In this document: positions 1-15,137 of the stretch, piece after piece
Layout: the number at the start of each line of letters is the position of its first letter
Numbering within the stretch: position 1 is the first letter of the stretch
Program-made: the position numbers and the translations under genes
The notes under the pieces: model-generated
Database searches by the model: none
Seen by the model: the letters and a program-made list of their open reading frames with translations, nothing else
Told to the model about the DNA's origin: nothing
Source: an uncultured Clostridia bacterium
GTDB taxonomy: Bacteria; Bacillota; Clostridia; TANB77; CAG-508
Reading direction: 5' to 3'
Length of the DNA: 64,000 nucleotides
Assembly: GCA_934132805.1 (NCBI GenBank)
Contig: CAKPAB010000001.1
Location: 197-64,196 of the forward strand

Positions 1-190
1 TTGCATTCAAGAATTCTAAAAACATATACATATATACAGTTTTGGCCTGAGTGAGAGAGGCTCCAGTTTTTTATGTTAGATTTTCTTTTTGAACGTAATG
101 AACAGGACGAAATCTCAAATATATACAATTACCCAAGGTGAAGGGGTGCCACACAAACAATAATTTTATTGGCTGTGAACAGTAACTATT
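1..190 (+). repeat. Copy A of a roughly 190-bp interspersed intergenic repeat family, possibly truncated at the window edge
   Basis: Bases 5-190 align nearly base for base with 8145-8338 (attcaagaattctaaaa...tacagttttggcctgagtgagagaggctc...ccacacaaacaataatttta...ctgtgaac.gtaac). They also align in inverse orientation with 7864-8034. Confidence 0.7.
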
Positions 191-203
191 AGTTACAACT
201 CAA

Positions 204-1052
204 CTACTTTTTAAAATGAAATTTATAATAATAAGGCTGTATATCACTCAATAAACTATCCATATAAATCATATTTCCATCAACATCTTGTATCTTAAGA
301 TTAGGAAAAGTTCTTAACATTTTTCTATCTCCCCAATGCTTATATATAAAATCAGAAGCAATTTTATTATCATAAATATCATCATATTTCTGCATTATAA
401 AATCTTTATTAGTAACATTCAAATCATAATTATGGACCATTCTTACCAAGAAAAATGATAATGCTATACCAGTTGCAACGCAATCAATAAGTAACAATAT
501 GGTAACTACAGCTGTTACTATCTTTAAAGCTTTTTCAGAAAGTTTATTTTTTATCCAATCAATTAATCTATCAACTCTTGGGTTAAATGATGCAATTAAA
601 TATAATGCTAAAAAGCCCCAAAATATTGAAAAATAAACACAAATTCTTCCATTTATATTAAGTGGCATATCAGAATAATCCCACCACTTTACACCTAGCA
701 ATATCTCCCCTATCCAGCTAACTAAATATTCCACAATTGAGCCAACTATAAAACCACCTATAAACAATCTTGTATATTTTTTAGAATACTTATGTAAAAA
801 GATAATCATTACAGCTGCTCCAAGTCCATATATTGCACAAAATGGACCATATAAAAAGCTTTGTCTGCTTTCCCAAGTTCCCTTTGTTATTATGCCAAAT
901 ATTGTTTCTATTACATATCCAACTACACTATAAATTATGAAGTATGCCAATATTCTCCATATTGACAACCCCATAATTGTAAATTTCTTTTTATTGTTTT
1001 CCGCTTCTTTTTTATTTTTTTCTGTTGTATTTTCTATTTCATTTTTTGGCAT
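204..1052 (-). CDS. Polytopic membrane protein, putative ABC-transporter type IV / DUF1113-like
   Basis: 282-aa ORF with about 6 hydrophobic helices and a lysine-rich N-terminus. The motifs YGPFCAIYGLGA and GGFIVGSIVEY resemble the PF06541-like family. Recognised from memory only. Confidence 0.45.
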   Translation of the reverse strand: MPKNEIENTTEKNKKEAENNKKKFTIMGLSIWRILAYFIIYSVVGYVIETIFGIITKGTWESRQSFLYGPFCAIYGLGAAVMIIFLHKYSKKYTRLFIGGFIVGSIVEYLVSWIGEILLGVKWWDYSDMPLNINGRICVYFSIFWGFLALYLIASFNPRVDRLIDWIKNKLSEKALKIVTAVVTILLLIDCVATGIALSFFLVRMVHNYDLNVTNKDFIMQKYDDIYDNKIASDFIYKHWGDRKMLRTFPNLKIQDVDGNMIYMDSLLSDIQPYYYKFHFKK

Positions 1053-1091
1053 ACTGCTTTTCTCCTCTCATTCTCTTTATATAATCGCAAA

Positions 1092-2876
1092 CTATAAAAG
1101 TTCTTTTAACTCATTTATTTTTTGATTATAAAATTCAATTGTGCTTTTATAAGTATCTTTGCTTTCCAAATCAACATCAACCATCTTAAGTAAATCTATT
1201 GATTTTTTAGAACATCCTTGTTTTAACATTTCAATATACCTTTCTAGAAAACCAGGCTCATTATTTAGAATTTTACTTGCAATAGCTATTGCTGCTGAAA
1301 CTCCTGTAGAATATTTATATACATAAAAGTCGCTATAAAAATGAGGTATTCTTGCCCATTCGTATTTAATTTGTTCATCTATTACTATATCATTTCCAAA
1401 ATATTTTTGATTTAATTTATAATATATATCATTCAAATCATCAGCAGCAAGCATAACATTGTTTTCAATCTTTTCATGAGCTATTTTTTCAAATTCAGCA
1501 AACATAGCTTGTCTAAAAAAGGTCGCTCTTATATTTTCTAATAATACATATATTAATTCAGCTTTTTTCTTGTTATCTTTCTCCTTTTTTATCTGATAAT
1601 CACTTAACAATATCTCATTAACAGTTGATGCTACTTCTGCAACCATAATAGTGTAATTAGCATCTAATACATTTTGTTCTTTATTTGAATAATATGAATG
1701 CATACTATGTCCTAATTCGTGTGCAATCGTACTTATATCCCTTTTACTATTTACAAAATTAGTTAATACAAATGGATGTACACCATATACTCCCATGCTA
1801 TATGCTCCACCCCTTTTATTTGGTTTTGCATATACATCTATCCATCTGTTATCAAATGCTTCTTGTATTTTATTAATATACTCATTTCCTAATACTTGTA
1901 ATGCATTTAAAACCTCCTGTTGTGCATATTCAAATGTTATTTCATCTTTTCCATGTTCACATGGATTTGCATATAAATCATACATATGCATTTCATTTAA
2001 TTTTAACATTTGCTTTTTTAATTTTATAAAATCATGATTTACTGAAATATTTTCATTTATAGCTTCTATTAAACTTGCATAGACTTTAAGGCTTGCATCA
2101 TCATGTTCAACTGCCTTTTCTAAACTTGAATTATATTTTCTTAATTTTGCAGTTATTGATTTTGCATTAATGTTTGATATATACATTTCTGTTATTGTAT
2201 TTATAAATTCACTATATTTTTTATACATCAAGTTAAAAGCTTGTTTTCTTACATTTCTATCTTTGCTTTTTAAAAATAATGTATATGTACTATCTGTCAT
2301 TTCTACTTCTTGATTATTTTCATCTATTAAAGTTCCGAATTTAAATTCTGCATTTGTTAATATATCAAATGTATTTTCTGGGGCTGATATTATTCCTGAA
2401 AAGTTTGCAAGTATATTTTCCTCTTCTTTACTTAATACATGTTTTTTCTCTTTCAGTATGTCGTTTATATTTCTTTTATAACCACTAAATCTTTCTTCTT
2501 TAATATATTCCTTTATTGTATTTTCATCTGCATATGTTATTTCAGGTGTCATAAATGATGTTGCTATGCCAAATTTTGTACCTAACTCTTCTACTTCTTT
2601 AAATATTTTTATACCATTTTGGTTAGACATGTCTAAATGATATTTTAACATTCCATATGCATATGCTTTTTCAAATTTTTCTAATGCTTGTTCATATAGT
2701 TTGTAACAATTATATAAATTGTCTGATGTAGTACATAATTTTCCTTGATATGTTTTTATTTTTCCTAATATATTTATTATTTCGTTTTTTTCCTTTTGAA
2801 ATTGTTCTTCATTTTCAAAGATGTCTTTTAAATTCCAATTATATTTTTCTTCCATCTTCATCATCCTTTCCTTCAT
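1092..2876 (-). CDS. pepF: Oligoendopeptidase F (M3B metallopeptidase)
   Basis: 594 aa with a HEXXH zinc motif (IAHELGHSMHSYYS). Length and overall similarity are typical of the PepF family. Confidence 0.88.
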   Translation of the reverse strand: MKERMMKMEEKYNWNLKDIFENEEQFQKEKNEIINILGKIKTYQGKLCTTSDNLYNCYKLYEQALEKFEKAYAYGMLKYHLDMSNQNGIKIFKEVEELGTKFGIATSFMTPEITYADENTIKEYIKEERFSGYKRNINDILKEKKHVLSKEEENILANFSGIISAPENTFDILTNAEFKFGTLIDENNQEVEMTDSTYTLFLKSKDRNVRKQAFNLMYKKYSEFINTITEMYISNINAKSITAKLRKYNSSLEKAVEHDDASLKVYASLIEAINENISVNHDFIKLKKQMLKLNEMHMYDLYANPCEHGKDEITFEYAQQEVLNALQVLGNEYINKIQEAFDNRWIDVYAKPNKRGGAYSMGVYGVHPFVLTNFVNSKRDISTIAHELGHSMHSYYSNKEQNVLDANYTIMVAEVASTVNEILLSDYQIKKEKDNKKKAELIYVLLENIRATFFRQAMFAEFEKIAHEKIENNVMLAADDLNDIYYKLNQKYFGNDIVIDEQIKYEWARIPHFYSDFYVYKYSTGVSAAIAIASKILNNEPGFLERYIEMLKQGCSKKSIDLLKMVDVDLESKDTYKSTIEFYNQKINELKELL

Positions 2877-3031
2877 TTATTATGTTTGTATTTTATCATA
2901 TTATTAAAATATTGGCTATAGGTATTTTATATTTTATATACTAATATCATTCTCATAGTCCTTTCTTGACGCAAAAAAAGATATTTTTCATATAATATAT
3001 AAATGTCGAATGAAAGGAGGTTTTGTAAATT

Positions 3032-3617
3032 TTGGAATTAGAACATAAAAAAATAGGTTTTGTTTTAACAGGTTCATTCTGTACATTTAGTAAAACAATT
3101 CCTAAAATAAAAGAATTAGTAAAAATGGGTGCAGAGGTCATACCAATTATGTCTTACAATGCATATAATTTAGATACTAAATTTGGAAAAGCCAATGATT
3201 TTATAAATGAAATTGAGGAAATTACTGGTAATAAGATAATTCATACAATACAAGCAGCTGAGCCAATTGGTCCAAAACACTTGACCGATATTATGGTTGT
3301 AGCTCCTTGCTCTGGTAATACTATGTCTAAACTTGCAAATGATATTATTGATACACCTGCTACTATGGCTGTTAAATCTCATTTAAGAAATAATCTGCCT
3401 GTAGTTATTGCCGTTTCTACCAATAATGCCCTAAGTCGGAAATGCAGTTAGCCTCGGCACTTTACTTAATAGAAAAAATTATTATTTTGTTCCTTTTAGA
3501 CAAGATAACCCTATTAGTAAGCCACGTTCTGTAGTTTTTGATTTTGATTATCTTATAAAAACAATTGAATTTGCATTAGATGGAAAACAAATTCAACCTA
3601 TATTAAAACAAATATAA
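3032..3617 (+). pseudogene. dpaB: Dipicolinate synthase subunit B-like flavoprotein (SpoVFB/DpaB family), interrupted by a 1-nt frameshift at about 3436
   Basis: The N-terminal part (3032-3451) matches DpaB (KKIGFVLTGSFCT...APCSGNTMSKLAN...VSTNNAL). The reading continues in another frame as GNAVSLGTLLNRKNYYFVPFRQDNP (DpaB signature FVPFGQDDP) to a stop at 3615-3617. Removing the c of agtCgga restores one ORF. Confidence 0.75.
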
Positions 3618-3626
3618 GAAGTTACA

Positions 3627-3662
3627 AAAGCAGATAATTATCAACTAATTATCTGCTTTAAA
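3627..3662. terminator. Bidirectional intrinsic terminator between convergent dpaB and the P-type ATPase gene
   Basis: Perfect hairpin aagcagataatta-tcaac-taattatctgctt flanked by A/T runs. Confidence 0.7.
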
Positions 3663-3686
3663 AGTTGTAAATTGTCAGTAAGGTTA

Positions 3687-5987
3687 TTATATTACATTAT
3701 ATTCTATTATTGTAGTCCGCCTAATTAATGAAAATTCTGCTATTGCAAATAGTGTAACAAGTGCAGCTGCTCGTGTTGATATCGCTTTTATTGCAAAAAA
3801 ATCTGGCATAATATTAATTGTTAAAAGAATTCCAAGAATACACAAAGCCATGACACATGCCCTGTATTTATTTAATGGTCTAATAATTTTATATAAGATT
3901 AAAAATCCACCCGTAAAAAATAAATAACTACAAGCTGTTGTTATTTCTTGGTCACCCACATTAAATAATACAGAAAATCTAACCATAGCCACAATCGCTA
4001 AAAACGAAGTTACTGCAGCAGGAAGTGAATTTTTAACCACTTTTTTCAAAAAATTGCCATTTTGCTGTTTCTTTTGATTTTCTTCAAATGTTAATAAAAA
4101 GGCTGGTATACCAATTGTAAATGCACTACCTAATGATACTTGATTTGGCTCTAGTGGATACTGCATTGCAAAAATTATTGAATACACAGAAAGTAACAAA
4201 GAAAATATATTTTTATATGTAAATAATGAAGCTGATCTTGTTATATTATTGATATTTTTTCTTCCTTCATAAACTATGTCTCTCATATTACCAAAGTCTG
4301 AATCGAGTAATACAACTTGCGCTGTTTCTCTAGCTATATCTGCTCCAGCTCCTATAGCAATTGAGCAATCCGCTTCTTTCATTGCTAAAATATCGTTTAC
4401 TCCGTCTCCTGTCATTGCTACTTTTAATCCCTGTTCTTTTAAAGCTTGAATTATTTGTTTTTTCTGATTAGGATTTACTCTTCCAAAAATAATATATTTT
4501 TTTACTGCTTTTTTTATCTCTTCATAGCTTTCTAATTCTCTACAGTCAATATATTTCTCATATCCTTTTATTCCTGCTTGTTTTGCAATTGATGATACTG
4601 TAATTGGATTATCACCTGATATAACTCTAATTTCAACTTTTCTATTGTCAAAAAACTTAAAAATTTCTTTTGCATTTTTTCTTATTTCATTTTTCAAACT
4701 TATAAATAAAATCGGAACATTTTTCTTACCTTCTTCTTTAACAAAAGCAAGTATCCTTTCTCCTTTTTTTGCTCTCTTATTAAGCATCTTTTCAAATGTT
4801 TTATCTAATAATATTTCTGGTGCTCCTAATTTATATGTTAAATTTTCATCAATTTTGATGAATGAAAATTTATTTTTCGAATTAAAATTTTCTTTGCCTA
4901 TATTAGATAATTTTTCATAAGAAATTCCATCCAACTGTTCTTCTATAGAATCCATTGTTATGTTATTATCATCTATTGTATTAATATATTTAGCAAGAAG
5001 TTCTAATTTTGAATTTTCTCTGTCCTTAATTAAGCTAGTTTCTTTTTCATCAAATATGTCCAATACCTTCATTTTATTATTTGTAATTGTTCCTGTTTTA
5101 TCAACACATAAAACATCAACTCTTGCAAGACTTTCAATGCTTTTCATATCATGTAAAATAACCTTTTTCCTAGCAAGCCTTCCTGCACTTATTGCCAAAG
5201 CAACTGTTGTTAATAAGTATAAGCCTTCTGGTATCATTCCAACTAATGCTGATACCATTGAATTAACACTTTCTTTATAAGTATTTCCATTTACATTATA
5301 AGACTCCCAAAACAATAATAATCCAATTGGAATAATGACTATCCCTGCAAATTTAACAATTTTATCAATTGCTAAAATCATTTCAGACTTTGTTTTCTTA
5401 ATTTTTTTTGACTCTTTCATTATTTTTGCAGAAAACGACTCATCTCCAACATTTGTAAGCCTTGCTATTGCTTTTCCAGATACAACAAAACTTCCAGACA
5501 TAAGATTTGAATTTGCATTTTTTTCGATTTCATCCTGTTCACCTGTCAATAAAGATTCATTTACATACATCTTTCCTGAAACTACTATTGCATCAGCTGG
5601 AATTTGATTTCCAGTCTCTAAAGATACATAATCTCCTTCAACAAGATTTTCAGAACTTATTTTTTCTTTTTCACCATTTCTAATTACAATATAATCACTT
5701 TTATCTAGTAATGATAATTTGTCTAATGTAATCTTTGATTTTATTTGCTGGAAAATTCCAATTAAAATATTTATTGTTATAATAATTAGAAACGTTAAAT
5801 TTCTATATGATTGTGATGTAATAAGCAATATTGCTAATATTAGAAAAATTAAATTAAAATATGTAAATATGTTTTTGCTTATTATTTTTAAAATACTTTC
5901 ATTTGCTTTATTTTTTATTTTATTTGTCTTTCCTTGTTTTATTTTTTCTTCTATTTCTTCTGGTGTTAAACCTTTTAGTTCTTCCAT
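3687..5987 (-). CDS. Cation-transporting P-type ATPase (P2-type, Ca2+/cation family)
   Basis: 766 aa with the DKTGT phosphorylation motif (CVDKTGTITNN) and the TGDGVNDILAMKEAD hinge motif. About 10 TM segments. Confidence 0.85.
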   Translation of the reverse strand: MEELKGLTPEEIEEKIKQGKTNKIKNKANESILKIISKNIFTYFNLIFLILAILLITSQSYRNLTFLIIITINILIGIFQQIKSKITLDKLSLLDKSDYIVIRNGEKEKISSENLVEGDYVSLETGNQIPADAIVVSGKMYVNESLLTGEQDEIEKNANSNLMSGSFVVSGKAIARLTNVGDESFSAKIMKESKKIKKTKSEMILAIDKIVKFAGIVIIPIGLLLFWESYNVNGNTYKESVNSMVSALVGMIPEGLYLLTTVALAISAGRLARKKVILHDMKSIESLARVDVLCVDKTGTITNNKMKVLDIFDEKETSLIKDRENSKLELLAKYINTIDDNNITMDSIEEQLDGISYEKLSNIGKENFNSKNKFSFIKIDENLTYKLGAPEILLDKTFEKMLNKRAKKGERILAFVKEEGKKNVPILFISLKNEIRKNAKEIFKFFDNRKVEIRVISGDNPITVSSIAKQAGIKGYEKYIDCRELESYEEIKKAVKKYIIFGRVNPNQKKQIIQALKEQGLKVAMTGDGVNDILAMKEADCSIAIGAGADIARETAQVVLLDSDFGNMRDIVYEGRKNINNITRSASLFTYKNIFSLLLSVYSIIFAMQYPLEPNQVSLGSAFTIGIPAFLLTFEENQKKQQNGNFLKKVVKNSLPAAVTSFLAIVAMVRFSVLFNVGDQEITTACSYLFFTGGFLILYKIIRPLNKYRACVMALCILGILLTINIMPDFFAIKAISTRAAALVTLFAIAEFSLIRRTTIIEYNVI

Positions 5988-6044
5988 AATTTTATTTTTT
6001 ATTGCACCTTCCTATTTAATTATTTACATATTTGTTTATATTTT

Positions 6045-7814
6045 TTATTTACCCAAAATTTCTTTTAATTCTTCATTTCTCTTAACTTTTTTAGTAGTAG
6101 TCTTAATAAGTTCCTTATCTGTCAAAATCATATTCATAATATGTTTATATCTAGGAACAGTAGTATTAACATCGCTTTTAATTTTATCCCAAATAATGCT
6201 TCTAATCTCATCAAAAGAAATATCACCATACTGTTGTTTAACCTCATCCTTATTATAAACAACCTTAACAGAAAGTTTAACATCATTTTTATCAATCTCA
6301 TCAGGCATACCAAATACCATACATTCCTCTACTAAATCTATTCTATTAACTAATGTTTCAATTTCCTCTGGAAAAACTTTTTTACCATTTTTTAAAACAA
6401 TCATATTTTTTTGTCTACCAGTTATAAAAATAAAGCCATCACTATCAATATAACCTAAATCGCCAGTATAAAACCAGCCATCCTTAAGAACATTACTTGT
6501 TTCTTCTTCATTCTCATAATAGCCAAGCATAACATTTGGTCCTTTTGCACGTAATTCCCCTATGCCATTATTATCTTTATTTACTATTTCCACAGTTACA
6601 TTTCCCATAGGAACACCTATTGAGCCAGTTCTTGATTTATGCATATTTTCCGCAGCAATTACTGGAGAAGTTTCTGTAAGGCCATATCCTTGTACCATAT
6701 CTATCCCTAAATCAATAAAACCTTTTTGTATTTTAGGGTCCAACGGTGCACCACCTGAAATAACAAATCTCATTTTTCCGCCTAATTGGTCAATTATTTG
6801 TTTGAATAATTTTCTTCTAATGTCTATATGAAATTTCAATAAAAAATTACTAAATTTTATTGCACTTTTTATAAGTTTTGTTTTTCCTTTTTTTTCTATT
6901 TCTTTTACGACTTTATTATAAATCGCTTCAACTAATAACGGAACACCAACAAATACAGATATTTCATATTCCTTTAAATTTTGTGCTACATATCTTAATC
7001 CATCTGGAAATGACGTTTTGACACCACATGCAAGCATCATTATCAAACATGTTGAGCCAAATATATGATGCATTGGTAAAAATGCTAAATTTGAATCTGT
7101 ACTCCTTATATCTTCAACTTTTTGCATTGCATATACATTTGATGCAATATTTTTTTGTGACAACATTACTGCCTTTGATTTTGATGTTGTTCCTGATGTA
7201 AATAATAAAATATTCATTTTATTTTCATCTATTTTTGCTGATATGTATTCTTTATTGCCTTTTTCTAATAATTTTTGTCCTTCTTCTTTTAATGTATGTA
7301 TATCATTATACCCTGTTAGTTTTGACATACAAATATATTCTTTAACATTCGTTGTATTTCTATTTTTTATTTCTTCTATTTTTTCTATATATTTTTCATC
7401 AAAATAAATTGCATCTGCTTTACTTCTTATTAATGAATTTTCTAATTCGTCTATTTGTAAATCTTTGTCTAATGGAATTGATATTATTCCCCCTAACAAA
7501 CTTGCTAAATGTCCTAGTGTCCATTCATATCTATTTCGTCCTAAAATAGCTATCCTTTTGTTTTTTAGTCCCATATCATATAATTTAGTGCCTAATGAAT
7601 TTATTTGTTCTAAAAGGGTTTTATATGTTATTTTTTCATATGTTTTGCTTTTTCCCTCTTGATGTTTTACTACAAATGCTATGTTACCGGCATATACTTT
7701 TGCCGAGTTATACATTATTTCTTTTATATCTTTAAATTCTTGAACATTTTTTTCTTTTTTCATTGTTTTCTCCTTAATTTTATTATTGTTATATAATAAT
7801 ACACTATTTTTCAA
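6045..7814 (-). CDS. Long-chain fatty acid--CoA ligase (AMP-binding adenylate-forming enzyme)
   Basis: 589 aa with an AMP-binding motif (LFTSGTTSKSKAV) and overall FadD-like architecture (YTGDLGYID..GR). Confidence 0.85.
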   Translation of the reverse strand: MKNSVLLYNNNKIKEKTMKKEKNVQEFKDIKEIMYNSAKVYAGNIAFVVKHQEGKSKTYEKITYKTLLEQINSLGTKLYDMGLKNKRIAILGRNRYEWTLGHLASLLGGIISIPLDKDLQIDELENSLIRSKADAIYFDEKYIEKIEEIKNRNTTNVKEYICMSKLTGYNDIHTLKEEGQKLLEKGNKEYISAKIDENKMNILLFTSGTTSKSKAVMLSQKNIASNVYAMQKVEDIRSTDSNLAFLPMHHIFGSTCLIMMLACGVKTSFPDGLRYVAQNLKEYEISVFVGVPLLVEAIYNKVVKEIEKKGKTKLIKSAIKFSNFLLKFHIDIRRKLFKQIIDQLGGKMRFVISGGAPLDPKIQKGFIDLGIDMVQGYGLTETSPVIAAENMHKSRTGSIGVPMGNVTVEIVNKDNNGIGELRAKGPNVMLGYYENEEETSNVLKDGWFYTGDLGYIDSDGFIFITGRQKNMIVLKNGKKVFPEEIETLVNRIDLVEECMVFGMPDEIDKNDVKLSVKVVYNKDEVKQQYGDISFDEIRSIIWDKIKSDVNTTVPRYKHIMNMILTDKELIKTTTKKVKRNEELKEILGK

Positions 7815-7863
7815 GATTTGTCACTAGTCTTATTGGTCAGTATTCTCAAGTCTTAAAAATATT

Positions 7864-8034
7864 GTTACAGTTCACAGTCCGTAAAATTATTGTTTGTGTG
7901 GTCCCCTTCCCCTTTGAGTAATTGTATATATTTGAGATTTCGTCCGTTTGATTGGAGTGAAAAATAGAAAATCTTAAATAAAAAACTGAGGAATGCTCAC
8001 GGAAAAACTGTATATATGTATATGGTTTGATAAT
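7864..8034 (-). repeat. Copy B of the roughly 190-bp interspersed repeat, in inverted orientation
   Basis: gttacagttcacagtccgtaaaattattgtttgtgtggtccccttcccctttgagtaattgtatatatttgagatttcgtcc is the exact reverse complement of the 3' part of copy C (8145-8338). The remainder is degenerate but retains ccatatacatatatacagtttt. Confidence 0.7.
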
Positions 8035-8144
8035 TCTTTCGGCTTCATTACACAACATAAGAATTTCTAAAAAAATAAATGGCACCCTTCCACTTTGTGA
8101 ACTCTTTCCATTTATTTTTTAAGAAATTCTAATATTGTTTCAAT

Positions 8145-8338
8145 TACATTCAAGAATTCTAAAACCATATACATATATACAGTTTTGGCCTGAGTGAGAG
8201 AGGCTCTAGTTTTTTATGTTAGATTTTCTTTTTGAACGTAATGAATAGGACGAAATCTCAAATATATACAATTACTCAAAGGGGAAGGGGACCACACAAA
8301 CAATAATTTTACGGACTGTGAACTGTAACAAAATGTCA
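8145..8338 (+). repeat. Copy C of the roughly 190-bp interspersed repeat; forms an inverted pair with copy B about 110 bp away
   Basis: Near-identical to 5-190. It ends about 35-75 bp before the start of the flippase gene. Confidence 0.7.
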
Positions 8339-8374
8339 GATTTATAGGGGATACAGAGCTTTGTAGGTATATAT

Positions 8375-9961
8375 TTGATATATACATGCATATTCATTAT
8401 AGAGGTGAAATATTTGAGACAGAAAAGTAAATTATTTTTAATAAATGGTGCTATACTTACCAGCACATCATTACTTATGAAATTTGCAGCACTTATTTTT
8501 AACATATATATATCAAATCAAATAGGAACAGAAGCTATTGGAGTATTCAGTCTAGTAATGGCAGTATACTTATTTTTTATAACAGTAGCTACATCTGGAT
8601 TAAACATTGCAGTAACAGTAATTGTTTCTGAAAAGTTTGCCTTGAATAAAAATAATCAAGCTATAAAAGCGATACGAACATGTATATTTTTTAGCTTATT
8701 ATTAGGCATTACTGCAGGAGGATTAATTTTATTTTTTTCTAGTTTTATTACAAGCAAATGTTTGCATAACATGGTTTCCTCTAAACCGTTATTTTATATT
8801 GCAATTGGGTTACCTTTTATTGCTATGTCTTCATGCATTAGTAGTTATTTCACAACTGTAAGAAAAGCTTATAAAAATGCTATCACACAAATTTTTGAAT
8901 TCACAATTAAAATGTTTGCAACAATAATATTACTAAAAATAAATATAAATAATGGTGTAGAAGCGGTTTGCATTTCACTTATTTTAGCTGATGTAATATC
9001 AGAAGTGTGCTCATTTACTTTAATTTTTATTATGTACATTATAGATATAAAACTTAAAAAATTAGAAAATGTCCGTTCTTTTGGTCAAAGGATTAATATT
9101 TTAAAAATTGCATTTCCAGTAGCCATCACATCATATATACGTTCTGGACTCTCAACTTTAAAACAATTAATAATTCCCACTCAACTTGAAAAGTCTGGAC
9201 TCTCTTGCAATATAGCTCTTTCACAATATGGAATGATTAATGGAATGGTATTACCTGTTATTACCTTTCCTACTGTACTTACTGATTCATATAGTATGCT
9301 TTTAATACCAGAATTTTCAACTTATGTAGCTCAAAAAAATTATAAGGCAATTAATTATATCTCTAATAAAATCTTTAAAGTTACTTGTAGTTTTTCTATG
9401 TGTATTTGTAGTATATTTTTTATATTTGCAAATGATTTAGGGCTGGTTATTTATAATAATGTTGAAATTGGTTATTTTTTTAAGGTTTTTACTCCTTTTA
9501 TATTTTTTATGTATATGGACCACATAATTGATTGTATTTTAAAGGGTTTGAATAAACAGTTTGGCGTTATGTGTTGTAATATTTTAGATTTGAGTGTTAC
9601 TACTTGTTTTATTTATTTTTTGCTTCCTGTTTTGGGTATTAAGGGTTATGTTCTTTCTATCTTTTTTAGCGAAGTTTTGAATTTTAGTATTAGCCTTTTT
9701 CAATTGTTTAAATATTCTAAAATTAAGCCTAATTTGATTGATTGGATAGTGGTGCCTTTTGCTTGTAGTTTGGTTGCTTATTTTATTATAACTGTTTTTC
9801 ATTTTACTTTTGTTAATCTTATTGTTAATTTAGTTTTTAATATTTTACTTTTCATTTTGATTTATATTATTGCTTTTTTTATACTAAATCATATATTAGC
9901 TAAAAAAACAAAAAGATTCATTAATTATTTTTTCTACAAAGAAAAGAGTTCACACATTTGA
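8375..9961 (+). CDS. Polysaccharide biosynthesis protein of the MOP superfamily (Wzx/MurJ/SpoVB-like flippase); true start probably TTG at about 8414
   Basis: About 14 TM helices and a Polysacc_synt-like organisation. A good RBS (aggtga) sits 7 nt before TTG at 8414. The gene is convergent with the glycan locus. Confidence 0.7.
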   Translation: MIYTCIFIIEVKYLRQKSKLFLINGAILTSTSLLMKFAALIFNIYISNQIGTEAIGVFSLVMAVYLFFITVATSGLNIAVTVIVSEKFALNKNNQAIKAIRTCIFFSLLLGITAGGLILFFSSFITSKCLHNMVSSKPLFYIAIGLPFIAMSSCISSYFTTVRKAYKNAITQIFEFTIKMFATIILLKININNGVEAVCISLILADVISEVCSFTLIFIMYIIDIKLKKLENVRSFGQRINILKIAFPVAITSYIRSGLSTLKQLIIPTQLEKSGLSCNIALSQYGMINGMVLPVITFPTVLTDSYSMLLIPEFSTYVAQKNYKAINYISNKIFKVTCSFSMCICSIFFIFANDLGLVIYNNVEIGYFFKVFTPFIFFMYMDHIIDCILKGLNKQFGVMCCNILDLSVTTCFIYFLLPVLGIKGYVLSIFFSEVLNFSISLFQLFKYSKIKPNLIDWIVVPFACSLVAYFIITVFHFTFVNLIVNLVFNILLFILIYIIAFFILNHILAKKTKRFINYFFYKEKSSHI

Positions 9962-12140: not shown

Positions 12141-15137
12141 TTATATTTCTCTCAATAATTGCATAGTAGCATTTATAAATTTTTGTGCATAATTTCTATT
12201 TAATGTTTGAGTATGACTATTTACTTCTGGAAGTTCTACTAAAGATGCACGTGCATTATTTAGCGACATTCTAGCCCAATTATCTAAATAGCCTCTTCCA
12301 TAAGAATATATATGATTGTTGTTTGAAATTCCAAAAGCATTTCTATAGTATCTACCTAATTCATAGTCTCCTATAGTTTCATTTAGCCATCCATGTGTAT
12401 CTATCAACACATTTTTACTACCTTGTTTTTTTAATAAAAAGTCTCTTAAATACCTTGCCTCATATGCTTGGAAGCCTGATGTTCCATTATAATTTCTACT
12501 GTCCTTATATGTTATATAGCTTTCTCCACTTGTAGACCAATTTCTATTCATATCAATTCCTTTGTTTCCAGGAGCTGCACTATATAATGTTGTCCTACCT
12601 GGTCCATTATTTGTCCAGCCATATTGTTGACCATCTGGATTCAAATTAGGAAAAATATATATTGTCCAACTATTTACTATATTTTCAGATATATTATTTT
12701 GTAAATAATTTTTAAATTCATTAGCAATATATGTCAACTCTGCTCCGTCATTATTATATGAATCTTCAAAACCATGTATTGAAAATGTCGTAAATAATAC
12801 TTTACTACCTTTTCCAATTTTATAGTATTTTAAATCTGTACCTCGCCAATCACCTTTTATTGCTAAACCAGATTTTCCATAACTTCCTTCTTCATAGAAT
12901 TTCCTAAAGCCTAATACAAATCTAAATTTTTGTGCATCTGTATAATTTATTTTAAAAGTTTGAACATTTTGTCCATTTCTACTAACTCCATTGTCAATAT
13001 CTATAGCTAAGCCATTTGCTTTTGAAATTATATTATAATATCCATTTCCGCATTCTTTTATTATCCATTTTTGATTGTCATTTCCCAAATACTCTGATTG
13101 ATATACATTATTTGTTGAAATGTCTACAGTTATCGCTTTATTTGATTTTTTAGATATAATTTTATATGTATCTGTAGATAATGCTTCAAATTTAAATCTT
13201 TGTTGCTCTACATTATCAGCATTCCAAATTTGAATATTTGCTCCAGACTGTATTGAGCCATCATAAACATCTAAAACCTTGTTGTAGTCTAGTTTTGTTT
13301 CTACCTCATATGTATCATTTTCTATTATGTTTATAGGTTGTAACTTAAATTTTTGTGCATCAGTTCCATTATTGTAATATAATTGAACATTTGCTCCATT
13401 CTCATTAACCTTTCCTGATTGTATATCTAGCACTAGACCATTTGCCTTTGAAATTATATTATAATATCCATTTCCACAATCTTTAAAATACCAATATTGA
13501 TTATCAGTAGAATTTGGAGTATATTGTTGAATATTTGTTCCTAATTTTTTCTCTCCCCATTGAACATCTAGTGCCTTTGCAGATTTTACAGATGTCACTT
13601 GATAATAATTTGTGTCTTTAATTTTTGTTATACGGAATTTCTGTTGTTGCACTTTATCATTTCCCCAAATTTGCACATTCGCACTATCATCACATGAGCC
13701 ATTCCAAATATCTAATACTTTATTGCTCATTGTTGCTATTTGATATATTCCATCTGCAATTTGAGATATATTTTCTTTTGGTGTTTCATTTATAAGCATA
13801 AAAATTTGATTATTTAAATCTGTTTCATACTTTAGTTCTAATGATGTTCCATTATATTCTAAATATAATTCTCCACATTTTGAAATTATAGAATACTTAC
13901 TCTCTCCTGATTTTTTTAATATCCATTTTTGTGTTTCTAATTCTTGGTCTTCTTGTTTTAAAATTACGCTTCCAGCTCTTGGAGTACTGCTCTCAACTGT
14001 TAATAGTTTCCCGTCATTCTTAGATTTTATCTTATAATATCCATCAGAAATATAACTTATCTCAAATTTATCATTTTCTACTAAATTATTTATATTATCT
14101 AAGCTATACATTCTATATAAACCATCTTCAGCTGATTGTGTAGCCTTTTCTTTTTGACATAATTCAAATGTGAATTTTTGTGCATTTGAGCCGTTAAAAT
14201 GATATGTTTGTAAATTTGTTCCAATTTTATTACTAGCATTTTCTACATCTAACAATAAACCATTAGATTTAGACATAATTGAATATGTATTATCCTCATT
14301 TTTCAGTAATATCCATCTTTGAGCATTTGTGTTATTAGAATTATATTGTTGCACTTTAGTTCCATTTCTTCTAGATCCATTTTGTACATCTAGAACTTTT
14401 GAAGAGTGTAATACTGTTATTGTATAAGTTCCGTCTGTATTATATGAAAGCTTAAATTTTTGATTTGCTTTATTATTAGGTGTAGCAATTTTTAATATAG
14501 CTTGACTGTTAATATCACTATTTGGAATTTCTAATACTCTATTATCTCCTATTTTAGAATAAATATTATATATTCCTTCTTCTAATGTTTTATTTGCTTT
14601 TCTTTCTTTAACTTCTAATAATTTGAATTTTTGTGCATTAGTTCCATTTCCTGCGTAAACTTGAATATTTTGTCCATTATTCCCCAAACCTGAAGCAATA
14701 TCTAAATATAGTCCATTCAATTTTGAAATAATATTATAATATCCATCTCCACATGATTTTAATATCCATTTTTGAGCATCTGTGTTATTACTATTATATT
14801 GCCATACATTAGCCCCAGAATATTTTGCTCCATCTTGAACATCTAAAACTTTATTAGAATGTGATGCAATAATTGTATATGTACCATCATCATTCAAAAC
14901 AAATTTAAATTTCTGTTGTGGCACATCATCTCTTTCATATATTTGAACATTTGCACAAACATTTAAGCTTGCATCCACTATATCTATTGTTTTAGTATCA
15001 CTAACTCCTGTATATATTTCATAAATGCCATTTTTGATATTTGCACTATCTGATGTAGCAATAGACTTAGTAGGTAAAATTGTTAAACTACATACAAAAA
15101 TTGCTAATATTACTATAATACAAAACCTTTTTTTCAA
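12141..15137 (-). CDS. Secreted multi-domain protein: signal peptide, five ricin-B (beta-trefoil) lectin domains and a C-terminal M14 zinc carboxypeptidase domain (gamma-D-glutamyl-diamino-acid peptidase-like)
   Basis: Signal peptide MKKRFCIIVILAIFVCSLT. Five QxW-type repeats (DAQKWIL, NAQRWIL, AQKFKL). The C-terminus carries M14 motifs (IFPNLNPDG, DMNRNW, IDTHGW). Confidence 0.75.
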   Translation of the reverse strand: MKKRFCIIVILAIFVCSLTILPTKSIATSDSANIKNGIYEIYTGVSDTKTIDIVDASLNVCANVQIYERDDVPQQKFKFVLNDDGTYTIIASHSNKVLDVQDGAKYSGANVWQYNSNNTDAQKWILKSCGDGYYNIISKLNGLYLDIASGLGNNGQNIQVYAGNGTNAQKFKLLEVKERKANKTLEEGIYNIYSKIGDNRVLEIPNSDINSQAILKIATPNNKANQKFKLSYNTDGTYTITVLHSSKVLDVQNGSRRNGTKVQQYNSNNTNAQRWILLKNEDNTYSIMSKSNGLLLDVENASNKIGTNLQTYHFNGSNAQKFTFELCQKEKATQSAEDGLYRMYSLDNINNLVENDKFEISYISDGYYKIKSKNDGKLLTVESSTPRAGSVILKQEDQELETQKWILKKSGESKYSIISKCGELYLEYNGTSLELKYETDLNNQIFMLINETPKENISQIADGIYQIATMSNKVLDIWNGSCDDSANVQIWGNDKVQQQKFRITKIKDTNYYQVTSVKSAKALDVQWGEKKLGTNIQQYTPNSTDNQYWYFKDCGNGYYNIISKANGLVLDIQSGKVNENGANVQLYYNNGTDAQKFKLQPINIIENDTYEVETKLDYNKVLDVYDGSIQSGANIQIWNADNVEQQRFKFEALSTDTYKIISKKSNKAITVDISTNNVYQSEYLGNDNQKWIIKECGNGYYNIISKANGLAIDIDNGVSRNGQNVQTFKINYTDAQKFRFVLGFRKFYEEGSYGKSGLAIKGDWRGTDLKYYKIGKGSKVLFTTFSIHGFEDSYNNDGAELTYIANEFKNYLQNNISENIVNSWTIYIFPNLNPDGQQYGWTNNGPGRTTLYSAAPGNKGIDMNRNWSTSGESYITYKDSRNYNGTSGFQAYEARYLRDFLLKKQGSKNVLIDTHGWLNETIGDYELGRYYRNAFGISNNNHIYSYGRGYLDNWARMSLNNARASLVELPEVNSHTQTLNRNYAQKFINATMQLLREI

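What the first reader, a model, noticed from the sequence alone, without database searches (positions are those of the whole stretch)
1..8338. Novel roughly 190-bp interspersed intergenic repeat family, including an inverted pair and a hairpin miniature before rluA
Copies A (1-190), B (7864-8034, inverted), C (8145-8338) and the 44-bp hairpin D (52830-52873) share long identical stretches.

B and C form a roughly 480-bp inverted pair between the acyl-CoA ligase and flippase genes. In three of four cases the conserved ...ctgtgaac.gtaac end lies 25-75 bp upstream of a start codon and points toward the gene.

This could be a MITE-like element, a transposed promoter or leader cassette, or a small structured RNA. 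An internal gcct...aggc hairpin plus T run resembles a terminator or attenuator. I do not recognise it as any known RNA family.
Basis: seen in the sequence. Interest (0 to 1): 0.6.

Follow-up and report, generated by a model that had tools for sequence, protein, structure and literature searches.

The report
Foldback miniature transposon in gut Clostridia
The "190-bp repeat" is one arm of a roughly 470-bp non-coding palindromic mobile element that inserts with an 8-bp target duplication; it is a new family of an already well-known kind of selfish DNA, not a new RNA or regulatory cassette.

Summary
The repeats are real, but the unit was drawn wrongly. B and C are the two arms of one 466-bp foldback element (window 7864-8329). 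It consists of two non-identical arms of about 220 nt around a 25-nt loop. A is one arm of a second element cut by the window edge. D is a 44-bp internal-deletion derivative that keeps both termini.

Evidence for transposition:
- Two assemblies of the same species (98.9% identical) have an empty site exactly where B-C sits. The filled site has a net gain of 8 nt, with target duplication GACATTTT/AATATTTT.
- D is flanked by a perfect 8-bp duplication, TATCAAAT.

Complete, truncated and rearranged copies occur at other loci in a second species (uncultured Clostridium sp. UMGS1423-like), and short remnants occur in a third. Most short-read contigs break inside the element.

There is no Rfam match, no conserved ORF, no promoter enrichment and no adjacent recombinase. 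A single arm does not fold better than shuffled sequence.

Best reading: a non-autonomous, MITE-like foldback transposon moved in trans by an unidentified DDE transposase, which also acts as a local rearrangement hot spot. The arms evolve in concert (12 shared changes against about 0.6 expected), which remains unexplained.

It is a new member of a known kind, of modest interest.

The parts
1..186 (+). Copy A: the outer ~186 nt of an arm of type 1, cut by the window edge. The whole element lies at L020:6867-~7236 and consists of arm 1, the central hairpin and a truncated arm 2.
   Evidence: (D7).
7856..7863 (.). Left copy of the 8-bp target-site duplication of the B-C element (AAAATATT on the + strand, AATATTTT on the - strand).
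   Evidence: Comparison with the empty site.
7864..8082 (-). Its terminus GTTACAGTTCACAG starts at 7864. Type-2-specific blocks are TCCGTGAGCATTCCTCAG and TTCACTCCAATCAAACGGA.
8083..8107 (.). Non-palindromic central loop (CACCCTTCCACTTTGTGAACTCTTT). Its orientation relative to the two arm types is the same in all complete copies.
   Evidence: (I13).
8108..8329 (+). Type-1-specific blocks are GGCCTGAGTGAGAGAGGCTCTAG and TTGAACGTAATGAATAGGA.
8330..8337 (.). Right copy of the 8-bp target-site duplication of the B-C element (AAAATGTC on the + strand, GACATTTT on the - strand). It matches the left copy at 6 of 8 positions.
52822..52829 (.). Left copy of the target-site duplication of D (TATCAAAT).
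52830..52873 (.). Copy D, a 44-bp deletion derivative. The first 35 nt of one terminus are joined at a TGTG microhomology to the last 9-13 nt of the other terminus. It lies in the rluA leader between the TGATATAAT box and the ribosome-binding site.
   Evidence: (I5, I8).
52874..52881 (.). Right copy of the target-site duplication of D (TATCAAAT), 8 of 8 identical to the left copy.
   Evidence: chance about 9e-5.
50085..50098 (-). Possible solitary terminus remnant (ATGTGAATTGTAAC, 2 mismatches to the terminus) upstream of the Fe-ADH gene, in a stretch absent from the sister species. This assignment is uncertain.

Best explanation
The repeats belong to a family of non-coding foldback transposons, that is, miniature inverted-repeat elements whose inverted repeat covers almost the whole element.

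Structure: a full copy is 466-489 bp. It consists of the reverse complement of arm 1, a short AT-rich central hairpin with a 25-43-nt loop, and arm 2. Both ends read GTTAC(A/T)GTTCACAG...

Inferred mechanism: the element is cut and pasted, or copied, by a transposase supplied in trans. That enzyme makes 8-bp staggered cuts in the target, which is the behaviour of a DDE-type enzyme. Families with 8-9-bp duplications, such as IS256/Mutator, ISL3, IS6 and IS66, are candidates.

After insertion, the copies decay and recombine:
- Microhomology deletions leave miniatures such as D.
- Homology between an internal motif and the arm deletes an arm.
- Copies act as break points for local gene gain and loss.

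What is shown: the insertion itself (filled versus empty site), the 8-bp duplication at two independent insertions, the lack of coding capacity, the dispersal in at least two species, and the decay products.

What is inferred: the type of transposase, mobilisation in trans, and that effects on neighbouring genes are by-products rather than the reason the element exists.
For: 1. Empty site. Two independent assemblies of the same species (L034 and L035, 98.9% nucleotide identity to the window) read ...AAATCTGACATTTTTAGAACTTGAG... between the flippase and ligase genes. The window reads ...CTGACATTTT[466 bp]AATATTTTTAAGACTTGAG... The difference is the element plus 8 nt.
2. D is flanked by TATCAAAT on both sides, 8 of 8 identical. 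The empirical chance is 9.5e-5.
3. All copies share the same sharp outer boundary and have unrelated flanks.
4. As single-stranded DNA the 496 nt around B-C fold at -164 kcal/mol, z = -29.
5. There is no conserved ORF. The longest stop-free frames differ almost only by non-synonymous changes.
6. Copies sit at other loci in an uncultured Clostridium sp. UMGS1423-like species: downstream of ackA, beside a thioesterase gene, at an NRPS-like gene, and a partial copy upstream of rpsO. The window has no element downstream of ackA.
7. Copies within one species share substitutions, for example TACAAT and CAGTTTT in the window species against TATAAT and CATTTTT in the UMGS1423-like species.
8. Decay series:
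- L020: arm 2 truncated.
- L034: a 24-nt remnant, and a rearranged piece replacing 1.6 kb of a P-type ATPase gene.
- Sister species: a 27-nt remnant at the same CmpB-LysM spacer, and a 55-bp miniature with termini ATTACAATTCAC/GTGAATTGTAAT.
9. Contigs end inside the element in 6 of 9 metagenome hits, 3 of 4 genome hits and 6 contigs of the window species. This is expected for a long inverted repeat.
Against: - No autonomous element with matching ends was found. Every exact match to the 29-nt terminal pattern in the genome and metagenome collections is a non-coding copy. There is nothing in viral contigs, plasmids or phages, and no transposase among the window ORFs scanned.
- The one other complete copy (L019) has no target duplication: GAACTATA against GTGCCTTC.
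- The B-C duplication is only 6 of 8 identical, although the insertion is polymorphic within a species.
- Copy number is low, roughly 3-6 loci per genome as far as can be seen, which is unusual for a MITE.
- The two arm types and the pairing between them are both conserved across species. A purely selfish element needs this only at its tips.
Confidence: 0.78

Rival explanations
1. It is a mobile promoter or leader cassette. Each arm would carry an outward-facing promoter, or a conserved 5' leader, and the element would be kept because it drives or regulates the genes beside it.
For: - The arms contain a conserved TATAAT or TACAAT about 60 nt from the outer end.
- B, C and D, and the L003 and L019 arm-1 ends, lie 21-110 nt upstream of start codons.
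- In the sister species, the rluA leader carries a weakly similar stretch at the same distance from its -10 box: TATAATGGCCAAGGGGAAAATAGACACACACAAACTATAAAATTAT (nhmmer E = 1).
- The B-C element and the UMGS1423 ackA copy both border a surface-glycan locus.
Against: - The promoter scan over 7600-8600 finds 7 sites against 6.3 in shuffles, and none of them is outward-facing within an arm.
- There is no acceptable -35 box 16-18 nt upstream of the conserved TATAAT (read from the sequence).
- The ligase has its own GTGACA-17-TATTAT promoter between the element and its start codon. That promoter is present and unchanged in the empty-site strain.
- A, L001 and L004/L019 arm 2 point into the 3' ends of convergent genes.
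- Strains without the element have the same genes.
Confidence: 0.08
2. It is a gene for a structured RNA. This could be a long hairpin RNA made by transcription across the palindrome, or a small RNA made from the central hairpin under an inward-facing promoter in arm 1.
For: - Pairing between the arms is kept between species: 13 of 176 predicted pairs carry a compensatory (both-sided) change in one of the two elements, and only one pair is broken, by a gap.
- There are 12 concerted changes against about 0.6 expected if the arms evolved independently.
- A TTGAAT-16-TAGAAT match in arm 1 faces the central AT-rich hairpin, which is followed by a T run.
Against: - No Rfam family matches at the gathering score. 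Sub-threshold hits are generic long-hairpin microRNA models.
- Single arms fold no better than shuffled sequence.
- The D hairpin is weak (-13.7 kcal/mol, z = -1.2).
- Concerted change is equally expected from gene conversion between inverted repeats.
- The central loop tolerates an 18-nt insertion (L019). The putative -35 box is not conserved there (TCGAAT).
- Copies are freely truncated.
Confidence: 0.06
3. It is an invertible phase-variation switch. The long inverted repeats would be recombination sites, and flipping the segment between them would change expression of the neighbouring surface-polysaccharide genes.
For: - The same flank carries arm 1 in L003 but arm 2 in L016, although these contigs are 99.3% identical. 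L014 carries a hybrid arm, with arm-2 inner sequence and arm-1 outer sequence.
- The B-C element sits between the ligase gene and a 28-kb glycan locus.
Against: - All four assemblies of the window species that cover or enter the B-C element show the same orientation and an identical sequence.
- No recombinase gene lies next to any copy examined.
- The element is simply absent from conspecific strains, and target duplications mark it as an insertion.
- Alternative arms at the ends of short-read contigs can arise from assembly path choice inside an inverted repeat, or from ordinary homologous flip-flop.
Confidence: 0.05
4. It is an assembly artefact, that is, a chimeric hairpin contig or a collapsed repeat.
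For: Palindromic joins are a known artefact, and many contigs end inside the element.
Against: - The 466-bp element with unique flanks on both sides is assembled identically by different assemblers from different samples (L025 with SPAdes, L026 with MEGAHIT, and the window).
- The arms are only 86% identical to each other, with arm-specific blocks that are conserved in another species.
Confidence: 0.01

Closest known systems
Bacterial MITEs (for example Correia/NEMIS elements of Neisseria, RUP of Streptococcus pneumoniae, ERIC/IRU of enterobacteria, Nezha of cyanobacteria)
   Same: It is non-coding and has terminal inverted repeats and a fixed-length target-site duplication. It inserts in intergenic regions, shows presence/absence polymorphism between strains, has hairpin potential, and generates truncated and miniature derivatives.
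   Different: - It is much longer (466-489 bp against roughly 100-300 bp).
- The inverted repeat spans almost the entire element (about 220-nt arms) instead of 20-40-bp tips.
- Only a handful of copies per genome are visible.
- No cognate insertion sequence has been identified.
- The list of named examples and their sizes comes from my own knowledge, not from a tool.
Foldback elements and Mutator-like elements of eukaryotes, and their prokaryotic relatives, the IS256 family
   Same: It has long terminal inverted repeats of 100-plus bp together with an 8-9-bp target duplication. The eukaryotic Mutator/Foldback association appears in the title of PMC3169594. The 8-9-bp duplication of the IS256 family is established knowledge of my own. 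A Transposase_mut (PF00872) gene fragment exists in the sister species (L029).
   Different: - No transposase link is shown.
- The published IS256 inverted repeat GATAAAGTCCGTATAATTGTGTAAAAG... (PMC4045577) shares only AGTCCGTA with some copies. That stretch is the most variable part of the terminus.
- The DNA upstream of the L029 transposase fragment shows no similarity to the arms.
Invertons, that is, phase-variable promoter switches flanked by inverted repeats (Bacteroides capsule promoters; Clostridioides difficile cwpV and flgB switches)
   Same: Inverted repeats bracket an intergenic segment next to a surface-glycan locus, and one locus shows alternative arms in different samples.
   Different: - The repeats are about ten times longer than typical inverton repeats.
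- There is no adjacent recombinase.
- There is no orientation polymorphism in the window species.
- It is clearly an insertion with a target duplication.
REP/BIME and palindrome-associated elements linked to IS200/IS605-type (HUH) transposases
   Same: They are palindromic, intergenic, non-coding repeats that can form hairpins in single-stranded DNA.
   Different: Those elements are 20-150 bp, insert without a target duplication and depend on subterminal hairpins. Here an 8-bp duplication is seen at two insertions.

Membership tests
MITE (non-autonomous DDE-transposon derivative) | Terminal inverted repeats | tested here: met
   The termini are GTTAC(A/T)GTTCACAG.../...CTGTGAAC(T/A)GTAAC. The inverted symmetry extends over the whole arms.
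MITE (non-autonomous DDE-transposon derivative) | Target-site duplication of constant length | tested here: met
   The duplication is 8 bp at D (8 of 8 identical) and 8 bp at B-C (net +8 nt against the empty site, 6 of 8 identical). The complete copy L019 has none.
MITE (non-autonomous DDE-transposon derivative) | Filled and empty sites in close relatives | tested here: met
   L034 and L035 are the same species (98.9% identity) and lack the B-C element. The window lacks the copy that sits downstream of ackA in UMGS1423.
MITE (non-autonomous DDE-transposon derivative) | Small size and no coding capacity | tested here: met
   The element is 466-489 bp. The longest stop-free frames (86 and 61 codons) differ between species almost only by non-synonymous changes.
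MITE (non-autonomous DDE-transposon derivative) | Several dispersed copies in a genome | tested here: met
   There are three loci in the 64-kb window and at least 4-5 loci in the UMGS1423-like species. The number is low for a MITE, and whole genomes could not be scanned.
MITE (non-autonomous DDE-transposon derivative) | A related autonomous insertion sequence with the same ends | tested here: inconclusive
   None was found among exact-pattern matches in the genome, metagenome and viral collections, in plasmids or phages, or among the window ORFs scanned. The rest of the host genome could not be searched.
IS256/Mutator-derived element | 8-9-bp target duplication | tested here: met
   The duplication is 8 bp at two insertions. 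It is not specific, because ISL3, IS6, IS66 and IS1595 also make 8-bp duplications (own knowledge).
IS256/Mutator-derived element | Ends similar to those of an IS256-family member | tested here: not met
   Only an 8-nt match to the IS256 inverted repeat was found, and it lies in a variable part of the terminus. There is no similarity to the DNA next to the Transposase_mut fragment in L029.
Inverton (phase-variable invertible promoter) | Both orientations present in populations of one strain or species | tested here: inconclusive
   The window species shows one orientation in four assemblies. At one UMGS1423-like locus, L003 carries arm 1 and L016 carries arm 2 at the same flank. Assemblies cannot separate a real flip from a difference in assembly path.
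Inverton (phase-variable invertible promoter) | Site-specific recombinase encoded nearby | tested here: not met
   No recombinase lies next to the B-C, A or D copies. The integrase near the A site in L034 and the sister species has no element end on its far side.
Known RNA family (Rfam 15) | Match to a covariance model at its gathering score | tested here: not met
   There are 0 matches in the whole window. Only sub-threshold hits to generic long-hairpin models appear in 7800-8400.
Intrinsic terminator or attenuator | G+C-rich stem-loop followed by a T run, conserved among copies | tested here: not met
   The terminator scan finds nothing inside the arms. The gcct...aggc stem has 4-5 pairs with a 9-nt loop and is replaced by a different sequence in arm 2.
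REP/BIME or IS200/IS605-linked palindromic elements | Insertion without target duplication, and small size | tested here: not met
   An 8-bp duplication is seen at two insertions, and the element is 466 bp.

The most novel reading that the evidence does not exclude
The hairpin form itself would be what is selected or transposed. The two deliberately non-identical arms co-evolve so that pairing is kept, with 12 concerted changes and 30 arm-specific differences conserved across species. This could mean that the element moves through, or functions as, a snap-back single-stranded DNA or cruciform, or a long hairpin RNA. It would then be a prokaryotic counterpart of eukaryotic Foldback/Mutator elements rather than an ordinary deletion derivative of an insertion sequence.
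Probability: 0.1. Interest if true: 0.6.

Novelty: new member of a known kind. Interest (0 to 1): 0.3.

Why it matters
The practical value is mostly for annotation and assembly.
- The family explains why contigs of these uncultured, low-G+C gut Clostridia break at particular intergenic sites.
- It marks sites of strain-level gene gain and loss. These include a truncated P-type ATPase gene, changed neighbours of the CmpB-like gene, and the borders of a variable cell-surface glycan locus.
- It gives a strain marker through presence/absence polymorphism within a species.

Biologically, it adds an unusually long-armed, low-copy foldback element to the catalogue of bacterial MITEs. The co-evolution of its two non-identical arms is a small open question: is it gene conversion or selection for a hairpin?

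It does not reveal a new regulatory RNA or a new kind of system.

Tried and rejected
- Rfam at gathering scores on the whole window, and at E up to 10 on 7800-8400. Nothing meaningful was found.
- RNA folding of a single arm on both strands. The fold was no better than shuffles, so a compact structured RNA was rejected.
- Sigma-70 promoter and terminator scans around B-C and D. Neither was enriched, and no outward promoter lies in the arms.
- I inspected by eye for sigma-E/K/G/F promoters, CRP/Rex, LexA, parS, dif, hix, CodY, cre and Spo0A boxes. No convincing match was found, so these are not reported as findings.
- BLAST of the 466-bp element against plasmids and phages gave no match. Three further pattern scans of viral contigs gave no match.
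- Hunt for an autonomous partner:
  - Pfam on 30 window ORFs found no transposase or recombinase. A third batch failed on a wrong coordinate.
  - The Transposase_mut fragment in L029 has no arm-like DNA beside it.
  - The integrase beside the A site is not bounded by element ends.
- IS256 ends. The published inverted repeat was checked. The similarity is only 8 nt and lies in a variable stretch, so it was rejected as evidence.
- I first treated the sister-species rluA leader as an empty site for D. It instead carries a weak arm-like stretch (E = 1), so it cannot serve as a clean empty site.
- I initially took 7859-8334 as the element and miscounted the B-C duplication as 5 of 8. This was corrected to 7864-8329 and 6 of 8.


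Full report

Yes, with corrections.

- A 28-nt core of the repeat occurs four times in the window, at the stated places, and never in 100 shuffles.
- Positions 1-186 and 8144-8329 are 92% identical (D7; BLAST E = 6e-75).
- B is the inverted partner of C. Three inverted-repeat pairs (7859-7969/8224-8334, 7996-8038/8152-8194, 8052-8082/8108-8138) are all symmetric about position ~8095.
- The whole stretch between the acyl-CoA ligase gene (6045-7763, minus strand) and the flippase gene (8414-9961, plus strand) is therefore one long imperfect palindrome.
- A profile built from the arms aligns over about 233 nt to 8097-8329 (+) and about 230 nt to 8093-7864 (-).
- The exact ends are 7864 (GTTACAG...) and 8329 (...CTGTAAC), which gives 466 bp.
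- As single-stranded DNA the region folds into one hairpin of -164 kcal/mol, z = -29 against shuffles.

Its copy C ends at 8329, not 8338.

**2. Anatomy**

Complete copies were compared: the window B-C element, L019:1048-1536 from a human-gut metagenome, and L020 for the locus of copy A.

- The layout is always the reverse complement of arm 1, then a central AT-rich hairpin, then arm 2. The loop reads GGAAAGAGTTCACAAAGTGGAAGGGTGCC, and L019 carries an 18-nt insertion in it.
- The two arms are not the same.
  - Arm 1 carries GGCCTGAGTGAGAGAGGCTC(C/T)AG and TTGAACG(C/T)AATGAA(C/T)AGGA.
  - Arm 2 carries TCCGTGAGCATTCCTCAG and TTCACTCCAATCAAACG(G/A)A.
  - Their inner 40 nt also differ.
- These arm-specific blocks are conserved in both species.
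- Arms of the same type from different species are 88-89% identical. The two arms of a single element are only 79-86% identical.
- Copy A in the window is the outer part of an arm 1. In another assembly of the same locus (L020) it continues through the central hairpin into an arm 2, which is truncated by a different, terminator-like repeat.
- Copy D is 44 bp. It is the first 35 nt of one terminus joined, at a TGTG microhomology, to the last 9-13 nt of the other.

**3. Evidence that it is a transposed insertion**

The ligase protein has a 99%-identical variant in two other samples. Their contigs, L034 and L035, are 98.9% identical in nucleotide sequence to the window.

- Their flippase-ligase spacer is 176 bp, against 650 bp in the window.
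- The alignment shows ...AAATCTGACATTTTTAGAACTTGAG... in the empty strains.
- The window reads ...AAATCTGACATTTT[466 bp]AATATTTTTAAGACTTGAG....
- The filled site has 8 extra flanking nucleotides, as a direct repeat GACATTTT/AATATTTT (6 of 8 identical).

D is flanked by TATCAAAT on both sides, 8 of 8 identical. The probability of this at a given pair of positions is about 9e-5, both analytically and by sampling the window.

Two independent insertions with an 8-bp duplication point to a transposase that makes 8-bp staggered cuts.

The element has no conserved reading frame. Nothing in the window ORFs that I scanned encodes a transposase or recombinase.

**4. Distribution**

An exact 29-nt terminal pattern was searched in one genome per species (185,579 species).

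- It occurs only in an uncultured Clostridium sp. (UMGS1423), on four contigs.
- The metagenome collection gives nine more loci from human-gut samples.
- Viral contigs give none.

The UMGS1423-like organism is a different species from the window organism, at about 87-89% nucleotide identity over the ackA region. Its copies lie at different loci:

- downstream of ackA, where the window has no element;
- between a thioesterase gene and a membrane-protein gene;
- upstream of an NRPS-like gene;
- at one further locus (L011);
- as a partial 3' module upstream of rpsO.

Copies within one species share substitutions that distinguish them from copies in the other species.

A third, very abundant sister species (RluA 84% identical, ligase 91% identical) has no full copy in the roughly 200 kb fetched. 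It does have two short pieces:

- a 27-nt arm end at the CmpB-LysM spacer, the same site as copy A;
- a 55-bp miniature with diverged termini ATTACAATTCAC/GTGAATTGTAAT.

At the same CmpB-LysM spacer, strain L034 keeps only the first 24 nt of arm 1. The insertion at the A site therefore predates the split of these species. The B-C insertion, in contrast, is polymorphic within one species.

**5. Side effects**

Contigs end inside the element in many assemblies, as expected for a long inverted repeat in short-read data:

- 6 of 9 metagenome hits;
- 3 of 4 genome hits;
- six contigs of the window species.

Copies coincide with structural differences between strains:

- In L034 a rearranged piece replaces the 3' 1.6 kb of the P-type ATPase gene that is intact in the window, and brings TehB-like and NUDIX genes with it. 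The piece is arm 1 lacking its 57 terminal nt, with the centre fused to the last 35 nt of an arm through the shared GGAAGGGTGCCA motif.
- Downstream of the A copy, the window species has a GerA operon where L034 and the sister species have LysM and integrase genes.

One locus shows arm 1 next to a flank in one sample (L003) and arm 2 next to the same flank in another (L016, 99.3% identical). L014 carries a hybrid arm. This is what flip-flop recombination between the inverted arms would give, but assembly path choice inside a repeat gives the same picture. In the window species, all four assemblies that reach the B-C element agree in orientation and sequence.

**6. What it is not**

- Rfam: there is no match at gathering scores in the window. 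Only generic long-hairpin models appear below threshold.
- Structured RNA: a single arm folds no better than shuffled sequence on either strand. The D hairpin is weak.
- Promoter: promoter-like sites are not enriched, and none faces outward inside an arm.
- Neighbouring genes: the ligase has its own promoter outside the element, unchanged in the empty-site strain.
- Terminator: the small gcct...aggc stem with a T run belongs to arm 1 only, and it does not pass the terminator scan.
- Other collections: plasmids and phages hold nothing similar.

**7. An unexplained feature**

The four arms of the two complete elements were aligned.

| Site class | Count |
|---|---|
| Identical in all four arms | 162 |
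| Arm-type-specific and conserved across species | 30 |
| Changed in the same way in both arms of one species | 12 |
| Single-arm changes | 16 |
| Showing the crossed pattern | 0 |

Independent evolution of the arms would give roughly 0.6 concerted sites. In the consensus fold of the two complete elements, 13 of 176 predicted pairs carry a compensatory change in one of the two elements, four carry a one-sided change that keeps the pair as a G-U wobble, and only one pair is broken, by a gap.

Gene conversion within the well-matched blocks of the arms explains this most simply. The diverged blocks would act as barriers to conversion. Selection for a hairpin in DNA or RNA cannot be excluded.

**8. 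Mechanism and comparison**

The best-supported reading is a non-autonomous foldback transposon, MITE-like, mobilised in trans.

- Shown: the insertion, the 8-bp duplication, the lack of coding capacity, the dispersal and the decay products.
- Inferred: the transposase class. An 8-bp duplication fits IS256/Mutator, ISL3, IS6, IS66 and IS1595 (own knowledge).
- Long inverted repeats with 8-9-bp duplications recall eukaryotic Foldback/Mutator elements (title of PMC3169594, seen). A Transposase_mut fragment exists in the sister species.
- However, the published IS256 inverted repeat (PMC4045577) shares only 8 nt with some copies, in the most variable part of the terminus. The DNA beside that transposase fragment is unrelated to the arms. 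Membership of an IS256-derived group is therefore not supported.
- Compared with known bacterial MITEs, the element is unusually long, is palindromic over its full length and is low in copy number.

**9. Verdict**

The unit was mis-drawn, since each '190-bp copy' is half of a foldback element.

It is a new family of a known kind. It is useful for assembly, annotation and strain typing of these gut Clostridia, and it leaves a minor open question about why the arms co-evolve. Interest is modest.

Noticed in passing
window 37516-37573 and 50133-50190; also L020:7218-7270: A second repeat family, AAGGA(C/T)TGTCCC..AATCCCT...AGGGATTTTAAGGAACGTCCCT, followed in the window by GTCCCTCA repeats. On the coding (minus) strand it forms a long hairpin followed by a T run just after stop codons (pfk; the gene upstream of ackA). 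It therefore looks like a shared intrinsic-terminator module. In L020 it truncates arm 2 of the foldback element.
   Followed up: partly
L008:~7040-7160 and L010 (sister species, pfk-adh spacer): A different palindrome of about 110 bp, GACCAATGGGGACGTTGTTAAATTGGTTGAA...TTCAACCAATTTAACAACGTCCCCATTGGTC. It is present in some sister-species strains and absent from L006 and from the window. These genomes seem to carry several families of small palindromic intergenic elements.
   Followed up: no
window 59577-59680: Two 35-nt arms that are 97% complementary, AAAAGTTGTCAAAAGGGCCGCCCCTTTTTGACAAC / GTTGTCAATAAGGGGCGGCCCTTTTGACAACTTTT. Each arm is itself a hairpin with a G+C-rich loop. They lie in the spacer between two minus-strand genes.
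   Followed up: no
L029:19117-19171 (sister species): A 55-bp miniature element with perfect 12-bp termini ATTACAATTCAC/GTGAATTGTAAT and an arm-like interior. It lies between an integrase gene and an HTH gene and looks like a diverged relative of copy D.
   Followed up: partly
L034:11742-13556 compared with window 3709-5686: In a conspecific strain the P-type ATPase gene is cut after about 370 nt. Its remainder is replaced by a rearranged foldback piece plus TehB-like methyltransferase and NUDIX genes.
   Followed up: partly
window 8414-36211: A cell-surface glycan locus of about 28 kb. It contains a flippase, many GT2 and GT4 glycosyltransferases, YfhO, an ABC-2 exporter pair, an O-antigen-ligase-like protein and two proteins of about 950-1000 aa with many ricin-type lectin repeats (12141-15137, 25203-28049). 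Its gene content differs between conspecific strains (L034/L035 against the window).
   Followed up: partly
window 36255-37445 and 37550-38764: Two tandem paralogous acetate/butyrate-kinase-family genes, about 75-81% identical in DNA (D4 and D5), downstream of a phosphotransacetylase/butyryltransferase gene.
   Followed up: no
L006-L010:9930-9980 (sister-species rluA leader): The stretch TATAATGGCCAAGGGGAAAATAGACACACACAAACTATAAAATTAT resembles the -10-like box plus the G-rich and CACACAAAC part of the arm. It lies at the same distance from the -10 box as D does in the window. The similarity is statistically weak (nhmmer E = 1). It may be an old decayed copy, or chance.
   Followed up: partly
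whole window: No Rfam family reaches its gathering score anywhere in 64 kb. That means no tRNA, rRNA, riboswitch, T-box or ribosomal-protein leader.
   Followed up: no
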